NCBI GenBank assembly: GCA_020632095.1
Contig: JACKGF010000001.1
Coordinates: 198,549-262,548, forward strand
Source of the DNA: Candidatus Nomurabacteria bacterium
GTDB lineage: Bacteria; Patescibacteriota; Minisyncoccia; Phycocordibacterales; UBA918
Reading direction: 5' to 3'
Length of the DNA stretch: 64,000 nt
Shown here: positions 11,202 through 42,038 of the stretch, in pieces
Numbering within the stretch: the first letter of the stretch is position 1
How the letters are laid out: every line of letters begins with the position of its first letter
Program-made: the position numbers and the translations under genes
The notes under the pieces: generated by a model
What the model saw: the letters and a program-made list of their open reading frames with translations, nothing else
The model's database searches: none
What the model was told of the DNA's origin: nothing

Positions 11202-11230
11202 ACAAGAAGTTTAAAATAAAGACTAGTTAT

Positions 11231-11269
11231 GAAAATGGTCGGAAATGCTTTGCATTTCCGACCATTTTC
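11231..11269 (+). terminator. hairpin terminator
   Basis: 18-bp inverted repeat gaaaatggtcggaaatgc/gcatttccgaccattttc followed by a T-rich stretch. Confidence 0.6.
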
Positions 11270-11311
11270 ATAATTTTCTGCTCAATATATCAATCCTTAT
11301 AGATTACAAAA

Positions 11312-22115: not shown

Positions 22116-22210
22116 AACTATCTCCTTTTCATAAGATGTGTGGATGCTATAAAAAATTTATAAGCAAACTCGCTGTCACACGAACTAGCTCAGACGCAAT
22201 ACGTTTAGAA

Positions 22211-23214
22211 CCCCCAGACACCTTTGAAGTAGGACAGCTATAAAGTAAATTAGCTGTCTATGAAAACATACAGACACATACAATTTGAGGAGCGTTTCGT
22301 AATTGAAAAGTTATTGAACGCAGGGAGTTTGATCAGAGAAATAGCCATCTTCCTCAAACGTAGTCCCAACACCATCAGTCAGGAACTAAAGAAGAATAGG
22401 GTTAATGGAGTCTATGACGCCAAGCAAGCCCAACTAAAAGTAAGTCAACGTCGTTGGCGGGCTAAACGTCAGTGTCTCAAGGTGGCTCTAGATAGTTTCC
22501 TGATTCGTTTCGTAGAAGACAAATTGGAGAAGAAGTGGACCCCTAAACAAATCAGTGGACATCTCAAACGAGAGCTCGGTGTTACCTGTTCCGCCAAAGC
22601 TATATACAAGTTCATAGAAAGTCGTGGTCTGGAATATCGACTATTCTGGCGTTGGAACAAAAAGAAAAGTGGTCCGAAACGGACCACACATAAACCAGCT
22701 GATGATGGCCGTAAATATATAGATATTCGTCCTCTTGGTAGCCATGAGCTAGGTCACTATGAACTAGACTTCATTGTCTCTAAGTACAGTCCATACGTAC
22801 TTCTAGTGGCTACTGACCGTTTAACTAAATACAGCTTGGTACGTCAGTTACCCAATAGAAAACGCCACACAATCAGTGCAGCGTTCTCTAAAATGTTTAG
22901 CAATATTATAGTCAAGAGTATCACCACCGACAACGACATTGCATTCCGTCACTGGACGGAACTAGAACAAATCATACAGGCTCCAATCTATTTCTGCCAC
23001 CCTTATCATTCTTGGGAGAAGGGACTGGTAGAGAATACTAATCGTTGGATTAGATGCTTTGTTCCAAAGCGGAGAGACATTGCGTCTGTTACTCAAGAAG
23101 AATTGAATGAGATTCATGCCTTCTTGAATGACCGACCGAAAGAGTGTATTGATTTTAGGATTTCGAGTGAGTATTATTATGAGCAATCTGTCCTACTTGA
23201 GGGGTAGCTGGAGG
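22211..23214 (+). mobile_element. IS30-family insertion sequence, apparently intact (~1.0 kb)
   Basis: Imperfect 27-bp terminal inverted repeats: cccccagacacctttgaagtaggacag (22211-22237) and ctgtcctacttgaggggtagctggagg (23188-23214). They bracket a single transposase ORF. Confidence 0.75.
22260..23207 (+). CDS. IS30-family DDE transposase
   Basis: N-terminal HTH (IQFEERFVIEKLL...SQELKKN) and C-terminal HSWEKGLVENTNRWIRCFVPK motif. Confidence 0.9.
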   Translation: MKTYRHIQFEERFVIEKLLNAGSLIREIAIFLKRSPNTISQELKKNRVNGVYDAKQAQLKVSQRRWRAKRQCLKVALDSFLIRFVEDKLEKKWTPKQISGHLKRELGVTCSAKAIYKFIESRGLEYRLFWRWNKKKSGPKRTTHKPADDGRKYIDIRPLGSHELGHYELDFIVSKYSPYVLLVATDRLTKYSLVRQLPNRKRHTISAAFSKMFSNIIVKSITTDNDIAFRHWTELEQIIQAPIYFCHPYHSWEKGLVENTNRWIRCFVPKRRDIASVTQEELNEIHAFLNDRPKECIDFRISSEYYYEQSVLLEG

Positions 23215-23384
23215 AAACAAATGCAAAACACACCTTACATAACTATTTAAATTTATTCAAGCTTGATACATTGACTTTTTTTGCTTAAGATAGTGGAAAT
23301 AGGGAAGTAGGTTAAAATCTGGAGTCAAATCGACTCTTTTATTTAATAATACACATTTTTCTACTTAACAATTAACCAATCATC

Positions 23385-32032: not shown

Positions 32033-32161
32033 CAATTTGTCGTTTTGTCCGATTCTGACGTGAGTCAGGAATTCACGATGACGTCTAGGCAAGGGAATAG
32101 AAGGGAATTACTCACCACAAAAATACCTGTCAGACAAAGTTAATTCAAGAAATCTGAAAAC

Positions 32162-32184
32162 GCTCCCCCTTAGGGAGCTTTTTT
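32162..32184 (+). terminator. rho-independent terminator after the ribosomal protein cluster
   Basis: gctccc-cctta-gggagc followed by tttttt. Confidence 0.6.
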
Positions 32185-32360
32185 AGCTAGTTATCGGTTC
32201 TCATATTTTGAGAACAAACCAGCGTCTCTATGTTTCAGACGCTATTCTAGTAAACTATGTAAAATTTGGTAAAAAATATACCCATTCAAAAATATTGTAA
32301 AAACTCTAAATAGATGTGTGTTATTATTTTATGGTTAACTATAATAATCATTCTGTCGGT

Positions 32361-33764
32361 ATGTCTTTACGAAAATCACTAGCTTTAGTTTGTGCTGCAC
32401 TCATTATTATTTCAAGTATTCCTTCAGTTGTTAAGGCAGAAGGAAAGGTGCCAAATGTTGAATCATCACAGGATCAGGACGTCAGTCAAAAAAAAGCGGC
32501 AAAATTAGCTAAGCCTTTTGAAAATAAAAAACCACAAGTATCAGTAACAACTAGTCCTTCTGTTGCTCGGAGTTTTATTTCTAGTGCTAGTGCAGTTGTG
32601 AATGAAAATTTAATCCCCAATGGAGATTTAGAGGACATGACTGGAGAAGAACCGACTTCATGGGGTAGAGGTGGATATGGTCAGAATGTACGTGAATATA
32701 CCTATCCGGTTGCTGGTTCAGGTGGTATAGGTAAGGCTGCTCAAGTATCTATGTCAGAATATACAGACGGAGATGCGCGATGGTACTTTACACCCCTAAC
32801 TCTTTCGCCAGGAGAATATGTATATACCGACATATTTAGCTCAGATATCCCAACTATCATTGAACTTCAACTAAAAAAAGCTGATGGTAGTTATTCATAC
32901 ACAGACATAAAATTTCTTACAGCAACAAACGGTTTTGAAACTAGTTCCGTTAATTTTGTAGTACCAGCCGGTACACAAGATGTTACGGTATACCATTTGA
33001 TCCAAGAGGTTGGAACACTTACTTTAGATTCAGCAACCCTTACGGCTGTTGAGGAAGTTCCTCCACCTCCACCACCTGTTCCAGTACCACACCAAGGAAT
33101 CTTTCAAACCGGGGGTGTCTCTTTACGCTTCGATGATGGTTGGTTATCACAATACACCGCTGCACTACCAGCCATAAAAGAGGCAGGCTTCAAAGCGACT
33201 TTTTACATCACGACACAACAAATTTTTGATAACGGCTACGATGGATTTGTTAGTATTCAACAGATAAAAAATCTTTACGCTGATGGCATGGAAATTGGTA
33301 ATCATACCCGCACCCATCCACACTTAACAGATTTGACAGCTCGACAACAAAAAGCAGAAATAACTGGTGCCTCAAAAGATTTAGCTTCATGGGGAATTCC
33401 GTCAGTAGCCAGTGTTGCATATCCTTATGGAGAATACAACAATACAACGATAAACAAAGTAAAGAAAGATGGTCTTAAAAGTGGAGCTACGACCAATAAC
33501 GGCAGCGTAAACCCATACACAAATCCGTATGTTTTAAACGGTAGTACGGTACTCAAGACAGATTCAGTAGCAAACGTCAAAAACAGGATTGATGCAGCGA
33601 TGGAAAACAAGGAGTGGTTAATCCTTTCGTTTCATAGAATAGACTACAGTGGTGATCTTTATAGCTATACACCTGAAGACTTCTCAGCCGTCATAGATTA
33701 CTTAAAATCTCAAAAAGTACCTGTAGTGACAGTTTCTACCGGAGTAAAGGATTTGGAAGTTTAA
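32361..33764 (+). CDS. secreted polysaccharide deacetylase (NodB domain) with N-terminal beta-rich domain and poly-Pro linker
   Basis: Signal peptide MSLRKSLALVCAALIIISSIPSVVKA. PPPPPVPVP linker. NodB motifs FDDGW and GNHTRTHPH. The track ORF starts 45 nt upstream. Confidence 0.75.
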   Translation: MSLRKSLALVCAALIIISSIPSVVKAEGKVPNVESSQDQDVSQKKAAKLAKPFENKKPQVSVTTSPSVARSFISSASAVVNENLIPNGDLEDMTGEEPTSWGRGGYGQNVREYTYPVAGSGGIGKAAQVSMSEYTDGDARWYFTPLTLSPGEYVYTDIFSSDIPTIIELQLKKADGSYSYTDIKFLTATNGFETSSVNFVVPAGTQDVTVYHLIQEVGTLTLDSATLTAVEEVPPPPPPVPVPHQGIFQTGGVSLRFDDGWLSQYTAALPAIKEAGFKATFYITTQQIFDNGYDGFVSIQQIKNLYADGMEIGNHTRTHPHLTDLTARQQKAEITGASKDLASWGIPSVASVAYPYGEYNNTTINKVKKDGLKSGATTNNGSVNPYTNPYVLNGSTVLKTDSVANVKNRIDAAMENKEWLILSFHRIDYSGDLYSYTPEDFSAVIDYLKSQKVPVVTVSTGVKDLEV

Positions 33765-33976
33765 TTTATTATCTCTTATATGACCAGGTAATTAAATACT
33801 TTTAAACTTCATACTGTTCAGAGTGACAGTATTAATCACACCTAGCACTTCTGCATTAAGTGTGATTTTTTAGTTACTATTATGCAAGCATGGTTAGTTT
33901 CATAAACAGAACAATCAATCATTGTCCGCTCTCTTATAGTTTCCTTAGGCAGGACCTAGGGATTACTTAATCTTGA

Positions 33977-34005
33977 CTAGTGACATTTTACACTTTCTGT
34001 TTTAT
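33977..34005 (+). promoter_or_regulatory. candidate promoter GTGACA-N17-TATACT
   Basis: Read upstream of the 34055 gene. Confidence 0.3.
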
Positions 34006-34054
34006 ACTCACACGCAGTAGCACACCTATAGACAACAAACTTGAGGGGTAAAAA

Positions 34055-34549
34055 GTGAAAGCACTACAATTATTTGCTGACTGCTGGTATATATTACTCG
34101 TAATCTCCTGTCTCGTAGTAGGTGCAACGTGGCTTGCACAGATAGAAGAGGAGAACATGCTAAGGGGACCAGCTCCGTCATTTTACAGCACAGAACAGTA
34201 CACACCTTTCTCTACATGGTTGGTCTTGGCGCTGTTTTCAGTACTCACCTTTATAGCTTCGGCGGGGACAGCGATATTCCTATTGTTGTCACCACACACG
34301 CAAAAGGTGGTGGCATGGACTCTCGAAACCATATCTAGTTGGTGGTGGTTATGGCTCGCTATCCTGATCGTAGCGATATTTCTCTTCATAGCAGCGGAAA
34401 TAGGGGAGGCACAAAATGAAGAAGCGGAGGTGAAGCAAAGAAAAGAAATGGTTATACCCAAATGGGCATTGATTACGACTGTGTTGCTGTCGCTTATCTT
34501 ACTCATTGTTTCATGTATCCACTACCTGTTCACAGTCAACCTAAGCTGA
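34055..34549 (+). CDS. hypothetical polytopic membrane protein (GTG start)
   Basis: GAGGGG SD; about 4 hydrophobic helices. Lies in a GC-elevated block. Confidence 0.5.
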   Translation: MKALQLFADCWYILLVISCLVVGATWLAQIEEENMLRGPAPSFYSTEQYTPFSTWLVLALFSVLTFIASAGTAIFLLLSPHTQKVVAWTLETISSWWWLWLAILIVAIFLFIAAEIGEAQNEEAEVKQRKEMVIPKWALITTVLLSLILLIVSCIHYLFTVNLS

Positions 34550-34568
34550 TGCGAACAAAGCATCAAAG

Positions 34569-34598
34569 CGGCCGATTTATCGGCCGTTGTTTCATTTT
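34569..34598 (+). terminator. hairpin terminator
   Basis: cggccgat-tta-atcggccg followed by ttgtttcatttt. Confidence 0.5.
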
Positions 34599-34638
34599 AT
34601 AGCTTCATATATCGAGACGTGAGACTTCAGCAGCATTT

Positions 34639-34691
34639 TTGATATTAAAGCTTATTAGCTTTATAATGTAGAAAGTATGGTGAATATGAAA
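34639..34691 (+). promoter_or_regulatory. duplicate copy of the grpE promoter and first codons (TTGATA-N17-TATAAT then ATGGTGAATATGAAA)
   Basis: 34658-34691 matches 36694-36727 at 31 of 34 positions. It encodes only MVNMKGNGERVN before a stop. Confidence 0.6.
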
Positions 34692-34780
34692 GGTAATGGG
34701 GAGAGGGTTAATTAAAGCTTGAACTGCAGAGGAGGAGGTAATGGGGAGAGGTCCGAGAGGTAATGGGGAGAGGTCCGTTA
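34692..34780 (+). repeat. iteron-like direct repeats: ggtaatggggagagg at 34692, 34737 and 34759 (the last two as tandem 22-bp units)
   Basis: Exact 15-mer three times. Units 2 and 3 extend to the 22-bp ggtaatggggagaggtccg(aga/tta). The unit resembles the outer end of the inverted repeats listed next. Confidence 0.7.
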
Positions 34781-34823
34781 TAATGCCAGAATCTGTGTTG
34801 TAATTTTAGAATGGGGTTTAATA

Positions 34824-35165
34824 TTAGAACACACAAAATGCACAAATAACGGACGTATCCCCATTAGCCCGTATCCCCATTAGCCAGATTTGACGCAACA
34901 CCATCATGAGCATCCTCACACACTCCAGCTCTTTGTTGACCTGGTAGTATGAATAGGCACTTTGTAGACGACCTGTTAAAAGACCGAAGTTGCCTGCCAC
35001 ACGCAATTCAGCTTGCTCCGTGTCTGGTTCAAACTCCTCGCCCTTCTGGTCGGCACCTTGCACCTGCCGTTTAAGCTGCTGCTGAACGGCCTCAGAGGAG
35101 AAGTTTGCAACCAGGACAGCTACGAAAACCTCGATACCGGATCTTACTTTTTGTGGGTTAAGCAT
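34824..35165 (-). CDS. hypothetical small cytoplasmic protein (114 aa) inside the repeat-bounded element
   Basis: AGGAGAT SD before the ATG of MLNPQKVRSG.... The track's longer 34824..35240 form lacks an SD. About 50% GC. Confidence 0.45.
   Translation of the reverse strand: MLNPQKVRSGIEVFVAVLVANFSSEAVQQQLKRQVQGADQKGEEFEPDTEQAELRVAGNFGLLTGRLQSAYSYYQVNKELECVRMLMMVLRQIWLMGIRANGDTSVICAFCVF
34844..34885 (-). repeat. left terminal inverted repeat of a 1.78-kb element; contains an internal tandem duplication of cgtatccccattagcc
   Basis: Its reverse complement, ggctaatggggatacgggctaatggggatacgtccgttattt, matches 36580-36624 at about 41 of 45 positions. Confidence 0.65.
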
Positions 35166-35251
35166 TTTGTATCTCCTATTCAGAGGAAAAGAGAACCTTA
35201 CGTAACTAGATATTACTACTTTCATCCATAATAAGAGCATTATATTTGTAA

Positions 35252-35297
35252 TATGTCAATATTTTCGCAACTAGATTGATAGCGATCAATATTGACA
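35252..35297. promoter_or_regulatory. 11-bp perfect inverted repeat atgtcaatatt/aatattgacat with 24-bp spacer, between divergent genes
   Basis: Each arm contains TTGACA, pointing outward toward one of the two genes. An inner palindrome ttgatagcgatcaa sits in the spacer. Confidence 0.5.
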
Positions 35298-35383
35298 TTT
35301 GTAGTAAATGACGTACTATCTAGTTATTAAACCGTTCTTTTTTCCGTCGAATGACGGGTTTCTTTTATTTTTGGAGTTAGACA

Positions 35384-35977
35384 ATGGTCAACAATATTCC
35401 ACGCATCATAGCCACGCTTGCTGCTTCTCTCATTCTGTTTTACGGTTCGCCAAGCAACGCGGTACCGACGGAAGAAAGCGCTGACCTGAAAACCAGCGTC
35501 GTTTCTCAGCCAGTCCCAGCCAGTGACAAGAAGGAGTCAGTGATTCTAGTTAGTGATTACTTCTGGGAATCTGAACTACCCAACGAATGGAGCAATGGCA
35601 GTCCGATTATTGTTAACATGAAAAACCCTACTTATGACTCTCCAGTCATGAACAGGCCTCCGAATGAAGCGCGGCCGAGCTGGGTCAATATGAGACGATC
35701 AATTAGCCAATTCACTCGCAACCTGTACTACCAAGTAAGTGTCATGTTGTGTACATACATGGTTGAGTCCAGAGAGGAATACATAACCGGACTTAGTGAC
35801 AAGACAAAAATTGATCCTGACTATGTTAGACACCTAATCCTCGATCATATACAAAGAATAAGTGAGATAAAAAATGTCATGCAAGCAAAACGATTGGATG
35901 AACCGGAGCATCTTCGATTTCATTCACTGGTGGCCAAACATTTGAGCGAAGTGAAGCTACTCGAAGGGATGCTTTAA
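35384..35977 (+). CDS. hypothetical secreted protein (197 aa)
   Basis: GGAG SD. Signal-peptide-like N-terminus IIATLAASLILFYGSPSNA. Confidence 0.5.
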   Translation: MVNNIPRIIATLAASLILFYGSPSNAVPTEESADLKTSVVSQPVPASDKKESVILVSDYFWESELPNEWSNGSPIIVNMKNPTYDSPVMNRPPNEARPSWVNMRRSISQFTRNLYYQVSVMLCTYMVESREEYITGLSDKTKIDPDYVRHLILDHIQRISEIKNVMQAKRLDEPEHLRFHSLVAKHLSEVKLLEGML

Positions 35978-36003
35978 CACCATCTTTTTACAGACAAACA
36001 ATA

Positions 36004-36035
36004 CAGCGCGCCGACCACAAGGTCTGCGCGCTTTT
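36004..36035 (+). terminator. hairpin terminator
   Basis: agcgcgc...gcgcgct followed by ttt. Confidence 0.5.
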
Positions 36036-36301
36036 ACATTATTAATCTGACTCTATTATTTTTCGTCGAAATCTCAGTTCATATATCAGTTCAACTACCG
36101 AATTTACTTAGACTAGAGTGCAACCGGTCTTCCTGAAGAATAATTACCTCATTTTCTATCGAAATTATGACTTTTCTACCCATCTAAGCAGCTTCAATTT
36201 TGACATCAAACTTCTCTTGCTTTACATTCAAAGCAGTTACATTGGTCATTAAAATCAAAACCTGATTAATTACAGTAGTAAATAACCTGCAGGAGAATAT
36301 A

Positions 36302-36643
36302 ATGGATAAGCAATTACTGATCGCACTTTTTCCGTTCTTAACAGGACTGTTCGCATATAACGCGATAAATCTCGCTTTTAGTTGTGTTGGGTGTCATGAA
36401 AATTCTATATTTTCTCCAGATGAATGGAAGAGAATCACTATTTTTTCACTAGGACTACTTATAGTGTCAGCTGCCCTGAAAGCCTTTACATCATCATCGA
36501 TAGAAACACAAGTAGTAACAATGGGCACACTAACCTTCCTTCGAGATACATGGTTCTTATCACTAATTGTGTTGATTGGCTCAATATTTGAGGCCAACGG
36601 GGATACGAGGCCAACGGGGATACGTCCGTTATTTATTCGATAA
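36302..36643 (+). CDS. hypothetical membrane protein (113 aa) whose C-terminus is encoded by the right inverted repeat
   Basis: AGGAGA SD and 3 hydrophobic helices. The last ~20 codons run through 36580-36624. Confidence 0.45.
   Translation: MDKQLLIALFPFLTGLFAYNAINLAFSCVGCHENSIFSPDEWKRITIFSLGLLIVSAALKAFTSSSIETQVVTMGTLTFLRDTWFLSLIVLIGSIFEANGDTRPTGIRPLFIR
36580..36624 (+). repeat. right terminal inverted repeat (tandem gaggccaacggggatac x2 then gtccgttattt)
   Basis: Pairs with 34844-34885. Confidence 0.65.
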
Positions 36644-36675
36644 GTGTTGCGTAATGTTTCCAAAAGCAAAATTTT

Positions 36676-36704
36676 TGACATTTAGGTCTTCTGGCTTTAT
36701 AATG
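36676..36704 (+). promoter_or_regulatory. grpE promoter TTGACA-N17-TATAAT, 8 nt before ATG
   Basis: Perfect consensus hexamers. Essentially a leaderless transcript. Confidence 0.6.
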
Positions 36705-36712
36705 CGAAAAGT

Positions 36713-37315
36713 ATGGTGAATATGAAAAATAATGACGACGATTTCGAAACTGAAATCACCAACGAGGACGGAAATGATATTGAATTACCCGAGTTAGAGG
36801 ATATTGAGGAACGCACGGAGGATAAAATTAAGAAATTAAGACAAAAATTATCCGAGTGTGAAGAGGAGAAAAAAGCGATTTTGGATGAGTCACAACGAAC
36901 GAAAGCTGACTTCCTAAACGCCCGCAAACGACTAGAAGACGAAAGGGCACGCGACCGCATCCGTTACCGCAAGCAACACGTTGAAGAGTTACTACCACTG
37001 TGTGACAGTTTTCAGATGGCCATGAGTAATAAAGAAGCCTGGGAGAAGGCGGACCCAGCTTGGCGGGTCGGAATTGAAGGAATTCACAGTCAATTACTGA
37101 ATATACTCAATTCTTATGGAGTAAAGGCGGTATCGCCAGAAGGCGAGGTTTTCAGCCCTCATCAACACGAAGCGATTGGCACCGAAGACGTCGAAGATGA
37201 AGCACTACACGACAAGATAGTTAGTGTGGTACAAAAAGGTTACGAGATGACTACGGGTGACACGACAGAAACTATCAGACCAGCCCGAGTCACCACTGGA
37301 ATAAAGATTAAGTAA
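36713..37315 (+). CDS. grpE: nucleotide exchange factor GrpE
   Basis: Acidic N-terminus, coiled coil, GrpE C-terminal domain. Sits upstream of dnaK. Confidence 0.85.
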   Translation: MVNMKNNDDDFETEITNEDGNDIELPELEDIEERTEDKIKKLRQKLSECEEEKKAILDESQRTKADFLNARKRLEDERARDRIRYRKQHVEELLPLCDSFQMAMSNKEAWEKADPAWRVGIEGIHSQLLNILNSYGVKAVSPEGEVFSPHQHEAIGTEDVEDEALHDKIVSVVQKGYEMTTGDTTETIRPARVTTGIKIK

Positions 37316-37428
37316 GTAAACGAACGTAGCGACTATTGCGAACTTATGTCCGAATTTGCGCGTTTCAAGCGCAAACTCCTGGACGAACTAGACCTGACAA
37401 TTAATTAGAAATATTGTATACAAAATAT

Positions 37429-39436: not shown

Positions 39437-40504
39437 ATGAAAGACTACTACACAATTCTCGGTCTTGAAAAAGGCGCCCCCAAAGACGAAGTCAAAAAAG
39501 CCTTTCGTAAAATGGCGGCTAAGTACCATCCCGACAAAAAAACCGGTGATGAGGAAAAATACAAAGAAATCACTGAAGCCTATGCTGTATTGAGTGATGA
39601 TAAGAAAAAAGCCGAGTACGATACCTACGGCCACGCCTTTAGTAATAGTGGTGGGGGAGGAGCGGGAGGGTTTAACTGGCAGGATTTCCAAGGTGCACAA
39701 GGCGGTTTTGGAGGACAAGGTTTCGAATTTGATATAAATGACATTTTCCAAAACTTTGGTTTTGGTGGCGGTGGACAACAAGTTCAACGAGGACGTGATG
39801 TTTCCATTGACATCAATTTAAAGTTTGAAGAAGCGATTTTTGGTGTGACCAGAAAACTATTAATCACCAAAAACAATACCTGTGTACACTGTGACGGCAC
39901 TGGGGCCAAAAAGGGAACTGAGATGAGTAGTTGTACAACCTGTGGTGGCAATGGAAAAGTACGCGAAACCAGACAAAGTATCATGGGTAGCTTTACCACT
40001 GTCCGTGAGTGTCATGTCTGTAACGGTACTGGTAATGTACCCAAGGAGCGTTGTGGACACTGTGCTGGAGCGGGGATTGCTCGTACCGAAGAAGAAATTT
40101 CTATCAAGGTACCGGCCGGTATCAGTAACGGAGAAGTAATTCGTATGACTGGTCGCGGTGAAGCCGTGTCAAATGGACAACCAGGTGACTTATACATCAA
40201 GGTCCATGTCGAAGCTCACAAGAGTATCCGGCGCGACGGCTCAACTCTTACTATTGCGCTACCTATCAAGCTAACCGACGCATTACTTGGAGCCACTTAT
40301 ACCGTCACCACTCTAGACGGTAACGTTGATATTAAAATTCCAGCTGGTATTGCTCACGGTGAACTAATTCGTATTAAAGAGAAGGGTGTCCCTGGCGACC
40401 GTGGCCGTGGTGACTTCATGGTCAAAATCTCCATCGAAACCCCGAAGAAACTTTCCAAACAAGCCACCAAATTGGTTGAACAACTACGCGAGGAGGGTAT
40501 ATAA
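39437..40504 (+). CDS. dnaJ: co-chaperone DnaJ
   Basis: J domain with HPD, a G/F-rich region, and four CxxCxGxG zinc-finger repeats. Confidence 0.9.
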   Translation: MKDYYTILGLEKGAPKDEVKKAFRKMAAKYHPDKKTGDEEKYKEITEAYAVLSDDKKKAEYDTYGHAFSNSGGGGAGGFNWQDFQGAQGGFGGQGFEFDINDIFQNFGFGGGGQQVQRGRDVSIDINLKFEEAIFGVTRKLLITKNNTCVHCDGTGAKKGTEMSSCTTCGGNGKVRETRQSIMGSFTTVRECHVCNGTGNVPKERCGHCAGAGIARTEEEISIKVPAGISNGEVIRMTGRGEAVSNGQPGDLYIKVHVEAHKSIRRDGSTLTIALPIKLTDALLGATYTVTTLDGNVDIKIPAGIAHGELIRIKEKGVPGDRGRGDFMVKISIETPKKLSKQATKLVEQLREEGI

Positions 40505-40547
40505 CAAACAGCGGGCTTGGGAAAAGATAAATCTTTTCCCAAGCCCG
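40490..40547 (+). repeat. dnaJ 3' end plus terminator hairpin, copy 1 of a 58-bp direct repeat (copy 2 at 41129-41186)
   Basis: gaggagggtatataaca.acagcgggcttgggaaaagataaatcttttcccaagcccg. Perfect 17-bp stem terminator at 40512-40547. Confidence 0.8.
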
Positions 40548-40909: not shown

Positions 40910-41143
40910 ATGCACCAACCTCCACGTTTTGATTTTGAAGACAAAAAATTTCCTGACAGTGATTTTGCGCTGCACGAACAAATCATTGAAGACCGTGGTA
41001 GTCGGTACTCAGTTAGCTATGGCCAGGTGGGGAGCAGGGAAGACATCAAACTTTTTCTTAAACAACTCAAGCAAAACAAAAAATACGCCAGCGCCACCCA
41101 CAACACTTGGGCCGCTCGCATTAGCCACGAGGAGGGTATATAA
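40910..41143 (+). pseudogene. chimeric gene fragment: 5' 75 codons of yigZ fused in frame to the last codons (EEGI*) and terminator of dnaJ
   Basis: 40902-41128 is nearly identical to 41611-41842 (one 3-nt indel, one substitution). It then switches to the dnaJ-end repeat at the microhomology acgaggag. Confidence 0.65.
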
Positions 41144-41306
41144 CAGACAACGGGCTTGGGAAAAGATAAATCTTTTCCCAAGCCCGTAACAATTATTCTT
41201 ATTATTCTTTAATTTCCTGGAACTAACAATCTTTTTTTCTAAACATCAACCGCTTTAGCAATCTCATTTATCTGTTGCGGTACTCATGTAAATGAGTCAT
41301 GAAAAG

Positions 41307-41618: not shown

Positions 41619-42038
41619 ATGTCGCACCAACCTCCACGTTTTGATTTTGAAGACAAAAAATTTCCTGACAGTGATTTTGCGCTGCACGAACAAATCATTG
41701 AAGACCGTGGTAGTCGGTACTCAGTTAGCTATGGCCAGGTGGGGAGCAGGGAAGACATCAAACTTTTTCTTAAACAACTCAAGCAAAACAAAAAATACGC
41801 CAGCGCCACCCACAACACTTGGGCCGCTCGCATTAGCCACGAAGGTGTGATCTACGAAACCAAAGCCGACGATGGTGAAACCGGAGCAGGGATGGTCATT
41901 CTTCGAATCATGCAAAAAGAGCAGGTGACCAACTGTGTAATTTGTGTCACGCGCTGGTTTGGGGGAGTGAAGCTGATGGGGGACCGCTTCAAACATGTCC
42001 AAGACGCCACCAAATACGCTATTGATTCATTCTCCTAA
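41619..42038 (+). CDS. yigZ: YigZ/IMPACT-family protein (UPF0029)
   Basis: ASATHNTWAARISHE...DDGETGAGMVILRIM...CVTRWFGGVKLMGD matches the IMPACT N-domain signature. Two TATAAT boxes at 41598-41611 lie 7 nt before the ATG. The track ORF starts at 41532, but ATG 41619 is the likely start. Confidence 0.8.
   Translation: MSHQPPRFDFEDKKFPDSDFALHEQIIEDRGSRYSVSYGQVGSREDIKLFLKQLKQNKKYASATHNTWAARISHEGVIYETKADDGETGAGMVILRIMQKEQVTNCVICVTRWFGGVKLMGDRFKHVQDATKYAIDSFS

What the first reader, a model, noticed from the sequence alone, without database searches (positions are those of the whole stretch)
34692..34889. Iteron-like tandem 22-bp repeats abutting the left TIR head-to-head
ggtaatggggagagg occurs at 34692, 34737 and 34759. 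The last two form tandem 22-bp units, and the spacing of 45 then 22 bp keeps a two-helical-turn register. The unit is a diverged copy of the TIR terminus (ggtaatggggagaggtccgttat against ggctaatggggatacgtccgttat). It sits in opposite orientation to the left TIR, so two tccgttat ends face each other across a 62-bp AT-rich spacer. This geometry recalls two element ends joined head to head, or reiterated binding sites next to an AT-rich unwinding region as in plasmid iteron origins. Both readings are inferences.
Basis: partly seen in the sequence, partly recalled or inferred. Interest (0 to 1): 0.55.

Follow-up and report, generated by a model that had tools for sequence, protein, structure and literature searches.

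The report
Stuttering ends of tyrosine-transposase repeats
The "iteron-like" repeats are partial copies piled up at the outer tip of a roughly 50-bp transposon end that belongs to a little-studied family of tyrosine (HUH) transposase elements common in tiny CPR bacteria; they are not a replication origin, but they change between otherwise identical strains.

Summary
GGTAATGGGGAGAGG occurs three times, and the unit is a diverged copy of the neighbouring inverted-repeat terminus.

The interpretation needs revision. The window holds three copies of one ~50-nt terminal inverted repeat (TIR): A (+, 34759-34808), B (-, 34869-34820) and C (+, 36609-36658). In many CPR (Paceibacteria) genomes and metagenomes the same TIR flanks, pointing inward at fixed distances, a 223-aa Y1 HUH transposase. 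That protein's closest solved structure is E. coli TnpA-REP. This is the TIRYT/TIRtron kind described in 2013, whose TIRs carry a GGGGWSAS motif.

By that orientation, A and B form a gene-less miniature TIR dimer and C is a solo copy. The 1.7-kb "island" between B and C lies outside all three TIRs.

The 22-bp "iterons" are 5'-anchored partial copies of the TIR tip. B has a 16-bp unit and C a 17-bp unit. About 40% of 225 TIR sites elsewhere show the same stutter.

Between near-identical strains the stutter indels are as frequent as substitutions, which argues against phased binding sites. I infer that cleavage by the transposase at the tip, or slippage there, creates the stutter.

No TIRYT gene lies in the window. 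The stutter appears undescribed.

The parts
34629..34698 (+). Orphan, truncated copy of the grpE promoter plus the first 5 codons (TTGATA-17-TATAAT ... ATGGTGAATATGAAA). It is cut off exactly where the TIR stutter begins.
   Evidence: Direct repeat D2, 79% identical to 36665-36734. Promoter scan gives 11/12. The promoter and start region are conserved upstream of grpE in relatives.
34692..34736 (+). Oldest, diverged prefix unit of TIR A, 45 nt: GGTAATGGGGAGAGG followed by a degenerate continuation of the TIR.
   Evidence: Exact 15-mer at 34692. Read directly from the sequence against TIR A.
34737..34758 (+). 22-bp prefix ('stutter') unit of TIR A. It is 20 bp in strains L048 and L049, and L050 has two extra shorter units.
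   Evidence: nhmmer prefix hit 34737-34755 to profile positions 3-21.
34759..34808 (+). TIR A, a full-length ~50-nt terminal inverted repeat (variant GGGGAGAG, which fits GGGGWSAS). Its inner side points right.
   Evidence: nhmmer E=8.1e-10 with a profile of 177 CPR TIRs. Sequence alignment with B and C.
34782..34845 (.). 64-nt interior between the two TCCGTTAT motifs. It consists of the inner halves (TGTGTTGTAAT / TGTGTGTTCTAAT boxes) of TIR A and TIR B, back to back.
   Evidence: Listed among the convergent doublets of the family.
34820..34869 (-). Its inner side points left, towards A.
   Evidence: Inverted repeat I2. Exact 24-mer. nhmmer E=8.7e-11.
34870..34885 (-). 16-bp prefix unit of TIR B (GGCTAATGGGGATACG). 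It is absent in strain L048.
   Evidence: 16-nt deletion in L048.
36592..36608 (+). 17-bp prefix unit of TIR C (GGCCAACGGGGATACGA). It is absent in strain L044.
36609..36658 (+). TIR C, a full-length solo copy. Its inner side points right, into the grpE promoter.
   Evidence: nhmmer E=2.1e-11.
36665..36734 (+). Functional grpE promoter (TTGACA-17-TATAAT) and the start of grpE. It is the partner of the orphan copy at 34629-34698.

Best explanation
The region is a cluster of three copies of the ~50-nt terminal inverted repeat of a TIRYT/TIRtron-type element. Such an element is a small transposon-like unit in which a 223-aa Y1 (HUH) tyrosine transposase of the RAYT/TnpA-REP type is flanked by two inward-pointing TIRs.

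Identity (shown). The TIR has the form [ggnA]AAYGGGGAnAnGTCCGTTAT, then about 10 nt, then TGTGnnnTAAT. TIR A (+) and TIR B (-) face each other and form a gene-less miniature TIR dimer, MITE- or REPIN-like, that can fold into a long hairpin in single-stranded DNA. TIR C is a solo copy next to the grpE promoter. The 'iteron-like' 22-bp repeats are not binding-site arrays of an origin. They are 5'-anchored partial ('prefix') copies of the TIR, stacked on the outside of its tip. B (16 bp), C (17 bp) and about 40% of TIR sites of this family in other genomes show the same stutter. It is hypervariable between otherwise identical strains.

Mechanism (inferred, not shown). The Y1 enzyme nicks one strand at the outer TIR boundary, a few nucleotides 5' of AAYGGGG. 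It stays linked to the 5' end while a polymerase extends the free 3'-OH for a variable distance. The enzyme then rejoins the displaced strand, which leaves a prefix duplication of variable length. Slipped-strand mispairing between the G-runs that bracket (T)AAT, and between existing units, adds and removes units.

The transposase itself is not encoded in the 64-kb window. It must act in trans from elsewhere in the ~1-Mb genome, or the copies here are relics that now change by slippage alone.
For: Family and orientation
- The 20-nt core AAYGGGGANANGTCCGTTAT recurs many times in CPR genomes: Kaiserbacteria MFMT01 has 11 matches in 9 loci and Paceibacteria L005 has 5; it also occurs in Lloyd-, Yonath- and Roizmanbacteria. 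It is found in at least 120 metagenome contigs, with 212 instances in the 122 loci fetched from the metagenome and viral scans.
- In those loci it lies directly 5' of, and inverted 3' of, a conserved 223-aa ORF.
- Among 11 full-length genes, 6 have both TIRs pointing inward at fixed distances. The left tip lies 48-50 nt before the ATG and the right tip 47-56 nt after the stop. Three genes have one TIR and none has a TIR in the opposite sense.

The protein
- Pfam Y1_Tnp, E=3.8e-16.
- NCBIfam REP-associated tyrosine transposase, E=9.8e-17, against IS200 at E=1.8e-3.
- An AlphaFold model (pLDDT 87) has 4ER8, TnpA-REP, as its best PDB match at E=7.9e-7.
- There are 2579 homologous clusters. The 120 best are all about 223 aa (one of 198 aa), and those that carry a name are named from Paceibacteria lineages.

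Literature
- RAYT-like genes flanked by long non-palindromic TIRs that share GGGGWSAS, with the TIRs dispersed as singles, dimers and groups, were named TIRYT/TIRtrons (PMC3733652; PMC6006769).

The window
- A profile of 177 foreign TIRs finds exactly A, B and C as full-length hits (E=1e-9 to 1e-11), plus prefix hits at the stutter units.
- Convergent doublets are common in the family, with discrete interior sizes of 45-46, 79 and about 125 nt.
- The A/B pair folds with z=-6.45, whereas single TIRs do not fold.

The stutter
- 89 of 225 sites carry 1-6 prefix units with periods of 6-45 nt. 111 of 163 units need no filler.
- Seed 7-mers occur 129 times upstream against 36 times downstream.
- Hypervariability: strain contigs differ from the window by 0-1 substitutions, and four of the six compared also carry stutter indels. 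These are -2 nt and -16 nt in L048, -2 nt in L049, +28 nt (two new units of new lengths) in L050, and -17 nt in L044.
- Junction positions hint at site specificity. In L015 a 103-nt prefix copy ends at an internal TIR-like site of the gene. In the window the truncated grpE start abuts the tip where intact grpE reads AATAATG.
Against: - No TIRYT gene is in the window (tblastn), and I could not search the rest of the genome. Activity in this organism is therefore unproven.
- The TIR A core (GGGGAGAG) differs from all other family members seen.
- B and C fit the published GGGGWSAS motif at only 7 of 8 positions.
- The NCBIfam RAYT score (61 bits) is below its cut-off of 80. No HTH domain, reported for TIRYT subclass 2.1, was detected by Pfam in the C-terminal 85 residues.
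- The nick-extend-rejoin mechanism is an inference. Many short (6-9 nt) units can be explained by ordinary slippage between the G-runs on either side of TAAT. Junction microhomology (mostly 0-2 nt) does not discriminate between the two.
- Strain differences come from short-read assemblies. The units are far shorter than the k-mers used, but collapse or heterogeneity cannot be fully excluded.
Confidence: 0.8

Rival explanations
1. The stutter is produced purely by replication slippage (slipped-strand mispairing) at a slippery TIR tip, with no contribution from the transposase. The TIR copies in this genome are inert relics.
For: - The TIR tip has G-runs on both sides of (T)AAT, and the commonest periods are 7-9 nt, as expected for slippage between those runs.
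- The -2 nt (GA) change, and the gain or loss of whole 16- and 17-nt units between strains, are classic slippage outcomes.
- No TIRYT gene is in the window.
Against: - The first unit at each of roughly 90 independent sites always starts at the TIR tip and always lies on the outside.
- The window's 16-, 17- and 22-nt units have only 0-1 nt of junction microhomology.
- L050 gained units of new lengths rather than copies of an existing unit.
- In L015, and at the grpE fragment, junctions fall at tip-like sequences.
Confidence: 0.3
2. Iteron-type replication origin. The 22-bp repeats would be phased binding sites for an initiator next to an AT-rich unwinding element, marking a plasmid-like or integrated replicon.
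For: Direct repeats lie next to a 64-nt AT-rich stretch. HUH Rep proteins of some replicons do use iterons next to their nick site (general knowledge).
Against: - No initiator or Rep gene is nearby.
- The context is chromosomal housekeeping genes: rpoA-rplQ-rplM-rpsI on one side and grpE-dnaK-dnaJ on the other.
- There is no skew switch.
- Unit length and number differ between near-identical strains.
- Identical architecture occurs at hundreds of TIR sites that flank a transposase gene.
- The AT-rich spacer is TIR sequence.
Confidence: 0.02
3. B and C are the true ends of a 1.8-kb transposable island (34846-36632) carrying three small ORFs. A would be a remnant of a second insertion, or a circle junction, abutting it.
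For: B and C are 50-nt inverted repeats at 74% identity that flank 1739 nt. The segment lies in a variable zone absent from relatives. An IS30 copy is polymorphically inserted inside it.
Against: - In every complete element the inner (TGTG..TAAT) side of the TIR faces the cargo. For B and C it faces away from the 1.7-kb segment.
- Divergent pairs in other loci show no preferred spacing, whereas convergent pairs do.
- The three ORFs have no transposase or other Pfam domain.
- No strain lacking the segment was found.
Confidence: 0.1

Closest known systems
TIRtrons / TIRYT-associated TIR repeats (Di Nocera, De Gregorio & Rocco 2013, PMC3733652; about subclass 2.1 of TnpA-Y1 in Quentin et al. 2018, PMC6006769)
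   Same: A RAYT-like Y1 HUH gene is flanked by long, non-palindromic terminal inverted repeats. The TIRs contain a GGGGWSAS-type motif (GGGGAGAG in TIR A). TIR copies are dispersed in the genome as singles, dimers and groups.
   Different: The host is CPR/Paceibacteria with ~1-Mb genomes, whereas the published surveys covered complete genomes of cultured phyla and found Y1 genes enriched in large genomes. B, C and most family members read GGGGATAM, which matches 7 of 8 positions. No HTH domain is detectable by Pfam in the C-terminal extension. The hypervariable prefix stutter at the TIR tip is not mentioned in either paper.
REP / REPIN - RAYT systems (Nunvar 2010; Bertels & Rainey 2011; E. coli TnpA-REP structure 4ER8)
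   Same: The transposase is closest to TnpA-REP by structure and by NCBIfam. Non-autonomous inverted doublets can form a hairpin, like REPINs. Copies flank the transposase gene in inverted orientation.
   Different: A single repeat is not a palindromic hairpin (fold z about 0) and has no GTAG head. The repeats are ~50 nt long and lie at fixed distances from the gene, like IS ends.
IS200/IS605 family (IS608, ISDra2)
   Same: Same Y1 HUH catalytic fold. The likely chemistry involves single-stranded DNA. A short sequence next to the end may define the cleavage or target site.
   Different: IS200/IS605 elements have no TIRs, and they have different subterminal hairpins at their two ends. The NCBIfam IS200 score is far below its cut-off.
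Plasmid iteron origins, and iterons next to the nick site of HUH Rep replicons
   Same: Short direct repeats next to an AT-rich stretch. Conceivably they are extra binding sites for an HUH protein.
   Different: There is no initiator gene, no fixed unit length or phasing, a chromosomal context, and units that are truncated copies of a transposon end.
Bacterial MITEs
   Same: The A/B pair is a gene-less pair of TIRs. A recurrent family member with a 125-nt interior retains the degenerate start and end of the transposase gene, as expected for an internal deletion derivative.
   Different: The presumed mobilising enzyme is a Y1 HUH enzyme, not a DDE transposase. No target-site duplication is evident.

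Membership tests
TIRYT / TIRtron TIR repeat family | Repeat flanks, in inverted orientation, a gene for a Y1 HUH transposase related to TnpA-REP | tested here: met
   Met in related loci, not in the window. Of 11 full-length genes, 6 have both TIRs pointing inward at fixed distance, 3 have one, and none is in the opposite orientation. Pfam Y1_Tnp E=3.8e-16. NCBIfam RAYT E=9.8e-17, but 61 bits against a cut-off of 80. Foldseek top hit 4ER8, E=7.9e-7.
TIRYT / TIRtron TIR repeat family | Flanking repeats are long TIRs, not self-complementary REP hairpins | tested here: met
   About 50 nt are conserved, from -5 to +45 relative to AAYGGGG. Single TIRs fold no better than shuffles, z=-0.5 to +0.9.
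TIRYT / TIRtron TIR repeat family | TIR shares the GGGGWSAS motif | tested here: inconclusive
   TIR A GGGGAGAG fits 8 of 8. B and C (GGGGATAC) and the family consensus (GGGGATAA/C) fit 7 of 8, with T at the first S. The motif comes from PMC3733652.
TIRYT / TIRtron TIR repeat family | TIR copies dispersed as singles, dimers and groups | tested here: met
   212 instances in the 122 loci fetched from the metagenome and viral scans, including convergent dimers and same-strand groups. The window has one dimer (A/B) and one single (C).
TIRYT / TIRtron TIR repeat family | C-terminal HTH domain (Bac_DnaA_C / HTH_23 / HTH_28-like) of subclass 2.1 | tested here: not met
   There are no Pfam hits in the C-terminal ~85 residues even at E<=10. 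The model shows a helical extension, but I did not search its fold separately. Subclass assignment is left open.
TIRYT / TIRtron TIR repeat family | A cognate TIRYT gene in the same genome as the window's TIRs | not testable with these tools
   None is in the 64-kb window (tblastn). The remaining ~930 kb of the Ca. Nomurabacteria genome could not be read.
REP / REPIN (RAYT-associated) | Each unit is a short imperfect palindrome with a 5' GTAG/GTGG head | tested here: not met
   There is no GTAG head, and single units do not fold.
REP / REPIN (RAYT-associated) | Inverted doublet able to form a hairpin | tested here: met
   A/B doublet: -34.1 kcal/mol, z=-6.45.
IS200/IS605 | No TIRs; distinct subterminal hairpins; TnpA matches the IS200 equivalog | tested here: not met
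   TIRs are present. NCBIfam IS200 gives 18.5 bits against a cut-off of 55.
Iteron-type replication origin | Adjacent initiator (Rep) gene | tested here: not met
   Neighbouring ORFs have no Rep or other significant Pfam domain.
Iteron-type replication origin | Repeats of fixed length and helical phasing, conserved between strains | tested here: not met
   The unit is 22 nt in the window and 20 nt in L048 and L049. L050 has four units of 14-20 nt. Family-wide periods range from 6 to 45 nt.
Iteron-type replication origin | Strand-composition switch at the origin | tested here: not met
   There is no GC-skew inflection near 34.7 kb.

The most novel reading that the evidence does not exclude
The prefix stutter may be a direct genomic footprint of the TIRYT enzyme's chemistry. 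Repeated cycles of site-specific nicking at the TIR tip, short polymerase extension and rejoining would write variable-length copies of the tip into the chromosome. This would be a previously undescribed, HUH-driven local hypermutation process that is active today in CPR bacteria with minimal genomes. It would map the unknown cleavage site of TIRYTs to the unit start, 2-5 nt 5' of AAYGGGG. It could also act as a contingency switch, because units of 16, 17 or 22 nt shift the reading frame of ORFs that end inside the TIRs. For example, the ORF at 36302-36643 is 113 aa in the window and 111 aa in strain L044.
Probability: 0.3. Interest if true: 0.65.

Novelty: new variant of a known kind. Interest (0 to 1): 0.45.

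Why it matters
TIRYT/TIRtron elements are mentioned in only two papers of the searchable literature, and nothing is known about their mechanism.

This analysis shows a large and very conserved TIRYT lineage, with a conserved 50-nt TIR, spread through Paceibacteria (CPR). Their ~1-Mb genomes were not expected to maintain such elements.

The hypervariable prefix stutter gives a concrete, testable prediction for where the enzyme cuts. It is also a ready-made marker for strain-level typing and for measuring element activity in metagenomes.

For genome annotation, these blocks should be labelled as TIRYT-type TIR repeats. They should not be labelled as origins, iterons or the ends of an island.

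Tried and rejected
- Plasmid and phage similarity of 34000-37400: no match.
- Rfam, both at gathering thresholds over the whole window and at permissive E-values over 34400-37000: nothing relevant. No tRNA or tmRNA.
- A small hairpin, AAYGG-N8-CCGTT, was flagged as terminator-like. I rejected it as a structural element because single TIRs fold no better than shuffles.
- A coding reading, in which all three copies can be read as ..NG(D/E)(T/R)SVI + 6 aa + stop. I rejected it because the tandem units are out of frame with each other (16, 17 and 22 nt) and the same sequence lies in non-coding flanks of the transposase gene elsewhere.
- A sigma-32-like CCCCATNT box on the reverse strand next to the heat-shock operon. 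I rejected it because it points away from grpE and is part of a dispersed TIR.
- A promoter reading of the TGTG..TAAT box. It is not excluded for the left end, but the box is present at both ends, so it is more likely part of the TIR.
- Viral contigs: only two singleton hits without the TIR context, consistent with chance.
- Roughly 35 chance hits were expected in the genome scan, by my own estimate. The singletons in non-CPR genomes lack the TIR context and were set aside.
- Sequence search of the PDB gave only a marginal TnpA-REP hit (E=0.18). The structural search was needed.
Full report
**1. What is in the sequence**

The window is a chromosomal segment of a CPR bacterium. It carries rpoA, rplQ, rplM and rpsI, then about 4.6 kb of lineage-specific DNA, then grpE-dnaK-dnaJ. 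The GrpE protein is 100% identical to one annotated in a Candidatus Nomurabacteria bacterium on a 997,259-nt contig.

The 15-mer GGTAATGGGGAGAGG occurs exactly at 34692, 34737 and 34759. With up to 3 mismatches the only other relevant matches are two - strand units at 34854 and 34870. There were 7 matches against 0.83 expected, and no shuffle reached 7.

The 24-nt terminus GGCTAATGGGGATACGTCCGTTAT lies at 34846-34869 (-). A copy with 2 mismatches lies at 36609-36632 (+). These are the outer parts of 50-nt inverted repeats at 34820-34869 and 36609-36658.

Reading the sequence shows that all three places have the same build:
- one or more partial copies of the first 16-22 nt;
- then the full unit ..AAYGGGGAnAnGTCCGTTAT;
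- then about 10 nt;
- then TGTGTTnnTAAT.

I call the full copies A (+, 34759-34808), B (-, 34869-34820) and C (+, 36609-36658). The tandem units are 22 nt at A, preceded by an older, diverged 45-nt unit that starts at 34692. They are 16 nt at B (34870-34885) and 17 nt at C (36592-36608). The spacer between the two facing TCCGTTAT ends is 64 nt, not 62.

**2. What the repeat belongs to**

I scanned one genome per species for AAYGGGGANANGTCCGTTAT. By my estimate about 35 chance hits were expected, and the singletons in unrelated phyla lack any shared context. The motif is nevertheless strongly concentrated in CPR genomes:
- 11 matches in 9 loci of one Kaiserbacteria MAG;
- 5 in one Paceibacteria locus;
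- further matches in Lloyd-, Yonath- and Roizmanbacteria and in Minisyncoccia.

The 122 loci fetched from the metagenome and viral scans hold 212 instances.

In these loci the motif is followed by the same TGTG..TAAT box. After that comes either the start of a conserved ORF (MPRMNRVAVGG.YHV.NR.NGR..) or, on the other strand, the end of that ORF (..RGPGRPK*).

The ORF is a 223-aa Y1 HUH enzyme:
- Pfam Y1_Tnp, E=3.8e-16;
- NCBIfam REP-associated tyrosine transposase, E=9.8e-17 (61 bits, below the cut-off of 80), against IS200 at E=1.8e-3;
- an AlphaFold model (pLDDT 87) whose best PDB match is E. coli TnpA-REP bound to a REP hairpin (4ER8, E=7.9e-7), followed by ISDra2 and IS608 TnpA.

The protein family is large: 2579 clusters at E<=1e-5. 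The 120 best are all about 223 aa (one of 198 aa) and 64-100% identical to the query, and those that carry a name are named from Paceibacteria lineages.

Among 11 full-length genes in the fetched loci, 6 have both motifs pointing inward at fixed distances. The left tip lies 48-50 nt before the ATG and the right tip 47-56 nt after the stop. Three genes have one motif and none has a motif in the opposite orientation.

The conserved TIR runs from about -5 to +45 relative to AAYGGGG. A single TIR does not form a stable hairpin (z between -0.5 and +0.9).

**3. Comparison with what is known**

This architecture has a name. Di Nocera et al. 2013 (PMC3733652) described RAYT-like genes flanked not by REP hairpins but by long TIRs. 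Many of those TIRs share GGGGWSAS, and the TIR families are dispersed as singles, dimers or groups. They called the enzymes TIRYTs and the units TIRtrons.

Quentin et al. 2018 (PMC6006769) equate most TIRYTs with subclass 2.1 of the TnpA-Y1 superfamily, which carries a C-terminal HTH.

- TIR A (GGGGAGAG) fits the motif exactly.
- B, C and the family consensus (GGGGATAC/A) fit 7 of 8 positions.
- I could not find an HTH by Pfam in the C-terminal extension, so the subclass is left open.

Only these two papers in the searchable library mention TIRYTs. No paper links such enzymes to Patescibacteria/CPR. Neither TIRYT paper mentions partial tandem copies at TIR tips.

**4. Reassigning the parts in the window**

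A profile built from 177 unique TIRs of other organisms finds exactly three full-length TIRs in the 64-kb window:
- C, E=2e-11;
- B, E=9e-11;
- A, E=8e-10.

It also gives weak prefix-only hits at the three stutter units, and nothing else.

In complete elements the TGTG..TAAT side faces the gene. By that rule A (pointing right) and B (pointing left) are a convergent pair with a 64-nt interior made only of their own inner halves, so they form a gene-less miniature TIR dimer.

Such dimers are common in the family, with discrete interior sizes:
- 45-46 nt and 79 nt;
- about 125 nt, a recurrent MITE that retains the degenerate start and end of the gene;
- about 724 nt, the full gene.

Divergent pairs show no preferred spacing. 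The A/B pair folds into a long hairpin as single-stranded DNA (-34.1 kcal/mol, z=-6.45).

C is a solo copy that points into the grpE promoter. The 1.7 kb between B and C holds three ORFs without Pfam domains. It lies on the outer side of both TIRs, so these TIRs do not define it as a transposon. No TIRYT gene is present in the window.

**5. The 'iterons' are a hypervariable stutter**

Across 225 TIR sites from other organisms, 89 carry between 1 and 6 upstream partial copies. Each copy starts at the same few nucleotides as the TIR and stops after a variable length, giving periods of 6-45 nt. Of 163 units, 111 need no filler nucleotides. Seed 7-mers from the tip occur 129 times in the 100 nt upstream of the TIR and 36 times downstream.

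In contigs of the same organism assembled from other samples, stutter indels are as frequent as substitutions:
- L048, 7.3 kb: 1 substitution, plus -2 nt in the A unit and loss of the 16-nt B unit;
- L049: 1 substitution, plus the same -2 nt;
- L050, 1.7 kb: no substitution, plus a 28-nt insertion that adds two new, shorter units at A;
- L044, 1.6 kb: no substitution, and loss of the 17-nt C unit.

In L043 and L045, which span C's unit but not A's, the only difference from the window is one substitution each.

Unit length and number are therefore not conserved. Together with the lack of an initiator gene and of a skew switch, this rules out phased iterons.

**6. How it most likely works**

Shown:
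- the identity of the repeats as TIRs of a Y1 transposase family;
- their orientation;
- the dimer architecture;
- the generality and hypervariability of the prefix stutter.

Inferred: the stutter marks a fixed breakpoint at the outer TIR boundary. HUH Y1 enzymes nick single-stranded DNA and stay attached to the 5' end, leaving a 3'-OH (established for IS608 and TnpA-REP).

Suppose a polymerase extends that 3'-OH for n nucleotides before the enzyme rejoins the displaced strand. The product is then exactly what is seen: a copy of the first n nucleotides inserted just outside the TIR. From memory, rolling-circle Rep proteins that overshoot the nick site by about 10 nt are a precedent for the extension step.

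Two junctions support site-specific breakage:
- In L015 a 103-nt prefix copy ends at an internal TIR-like sequence of the transposase gene (CGTG|CTAACGGTCGCGTCC, against the tip G|GAAATGGGGATACGTCC).
- In the window a truncated copy of the grpE promoter plus 5 codons abuts the tip of the A stutter, exactly where intact grpE reads AAT AAT G.

Ordinary slippage certainly contributes. The tip has G-runs on both sides of TAAT, and whole-unit gains and losses occur. Slippage alone could explain many short units, so I give this rival 0.3.

Whether the elements are active in this genome depends on a TIRYT gene that I could not look for outside the window.

**7. Context**

In relatives with about 69% GrpE identity, rpsI is followed directly by grpE, or by one response-regulator gene. 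The 32.1-36.7 kb interval is therefore a variable zone.

The grpE promoter and start (TTTTTGACA-17-TATAATG..GTATGGTGAATATGAA) is conserved in those relatives. It is present twice in the window, and the upstream copy is truncated by the TIR stutter.

In one sample an IS30-family element (window 22207-23216) has a second, inverted copy inserted at about 35334-35337.

**8. Verdict**

The iteron/origin reading is rejected, and the 'two ends head to head' reading is essentially right but with a different partner.

The feature is a new, CPR-wide variant of the known but barely studied TIRYT/TIRtron kind. Its apparently undescribed property is a hypervariable prefix stutter at the TIR tip.

Interest is moderate at 0.45. 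The identity is explained by a known class. The stutter offers a testable handle on an uncharacterised enzyme family.

Noticed in passing
window 34629-34698 vs 36665-36734: The grpE promoter and first 5 codons are present twice at 79% identity. The upstream copy is an orphan, cut off exactly at the first TIR stutter unit, at the point where intact grpE continues AATAATG (tip-like). This suggests that the TIR cluster, or a rearrangement it mediated, entered at a TAATG-like site in the 5' end of a grpE copy.
   Followed up: partly
window 22207-23216 (ORF 22260-23207, +) and window ~35334-35337: An element of about 1 kb encodes a 315-aa ORF that looks like an IS30-family transposase (judged by eye, no Pfam run). 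Contigs L040 and L048 from sample ERZ27248697 join window 35334-35337 to both ends of this element in inverted orientation. That strain therefore carries a second copy, inserted between TIR B and the 197-aa ORF, with about 4 bp of overlap at the junctions.
   Followed up: partly
window 32100-36700, compared with L174 and L177: In relatives with ~69% GrpE identity, rpsI is followed directly by grpE (66-nt spacer) or by one response-regulator gene. In the window 4.6 kb lies in between: a polysaccharide deacetylase, a 164-aa membrane ORF, the TIR cluster and three small ORFs. This is a variable insertion hot spot.
   Followed up: partly
window 40489-40547 / 41128-41186 and 40912-41130 / 41624-41842: There is a mosaic of recent duplications downstream of dnaJ. 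The dnaJ 3' end plus its terminator is repeated 639 nt downstream at 97% identity. A 219-nt internal fragment of the UPF0029/Impact_N gene is repeated 712 nt upstream at 100% identity. Whether this is a real rearrangement or an assembly artefact is not resolved.
   Followed up: no
L015 3366-3520: A 103-nt 'long stutter': the left TIR plus the first 60 nt of the TIRYT gene is duplicated, and the copy ends at an internal site of the gene that resembles the TIR core. The coding sequence for R-A-N-G-R-V (GCTAACGGTCGCGTCC) resembles the TIR (GAAATGGGGATACGTCC). This raises the question whether the TIR and this gene segment are related, or whether the gene carries an internal recognition site.
   Followed up: partly
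L055, L063, L075, L100, L157, L167, L074, L088, L092 (convergent pairs, interior ~125 nt): A conserved miniature element of about 170 nt in total recurs on many metagenome contigs. It is made of both TIRs plus the degenerate first ~25 nt and last ~30 nt of the transposase gene, so it is an internally deleted, MITE-like derivative of the TIRtron.
   Followed up: partly
window 36302-36643 (+) and 34824-35240 (-): Two ORFs of unknown function end inside TIR C and TIR B respectively. Gain or loss of a 17- or 16-nt stutter unit changes their C-terminal frame. For example, the ORF is 113 aa in the window and 111 aa in L044. It is unknown whether these ORFs are real genes.
   Followed up: no
window 11227-11273: A perfect 22-nt palindrome pair, TTATGAAAATGGTCGGAAATGC / GCATTTCCGACCATTTTCATAA, separated by 3 nt. 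It is unrelated to the TIR family.
   Followed up: no
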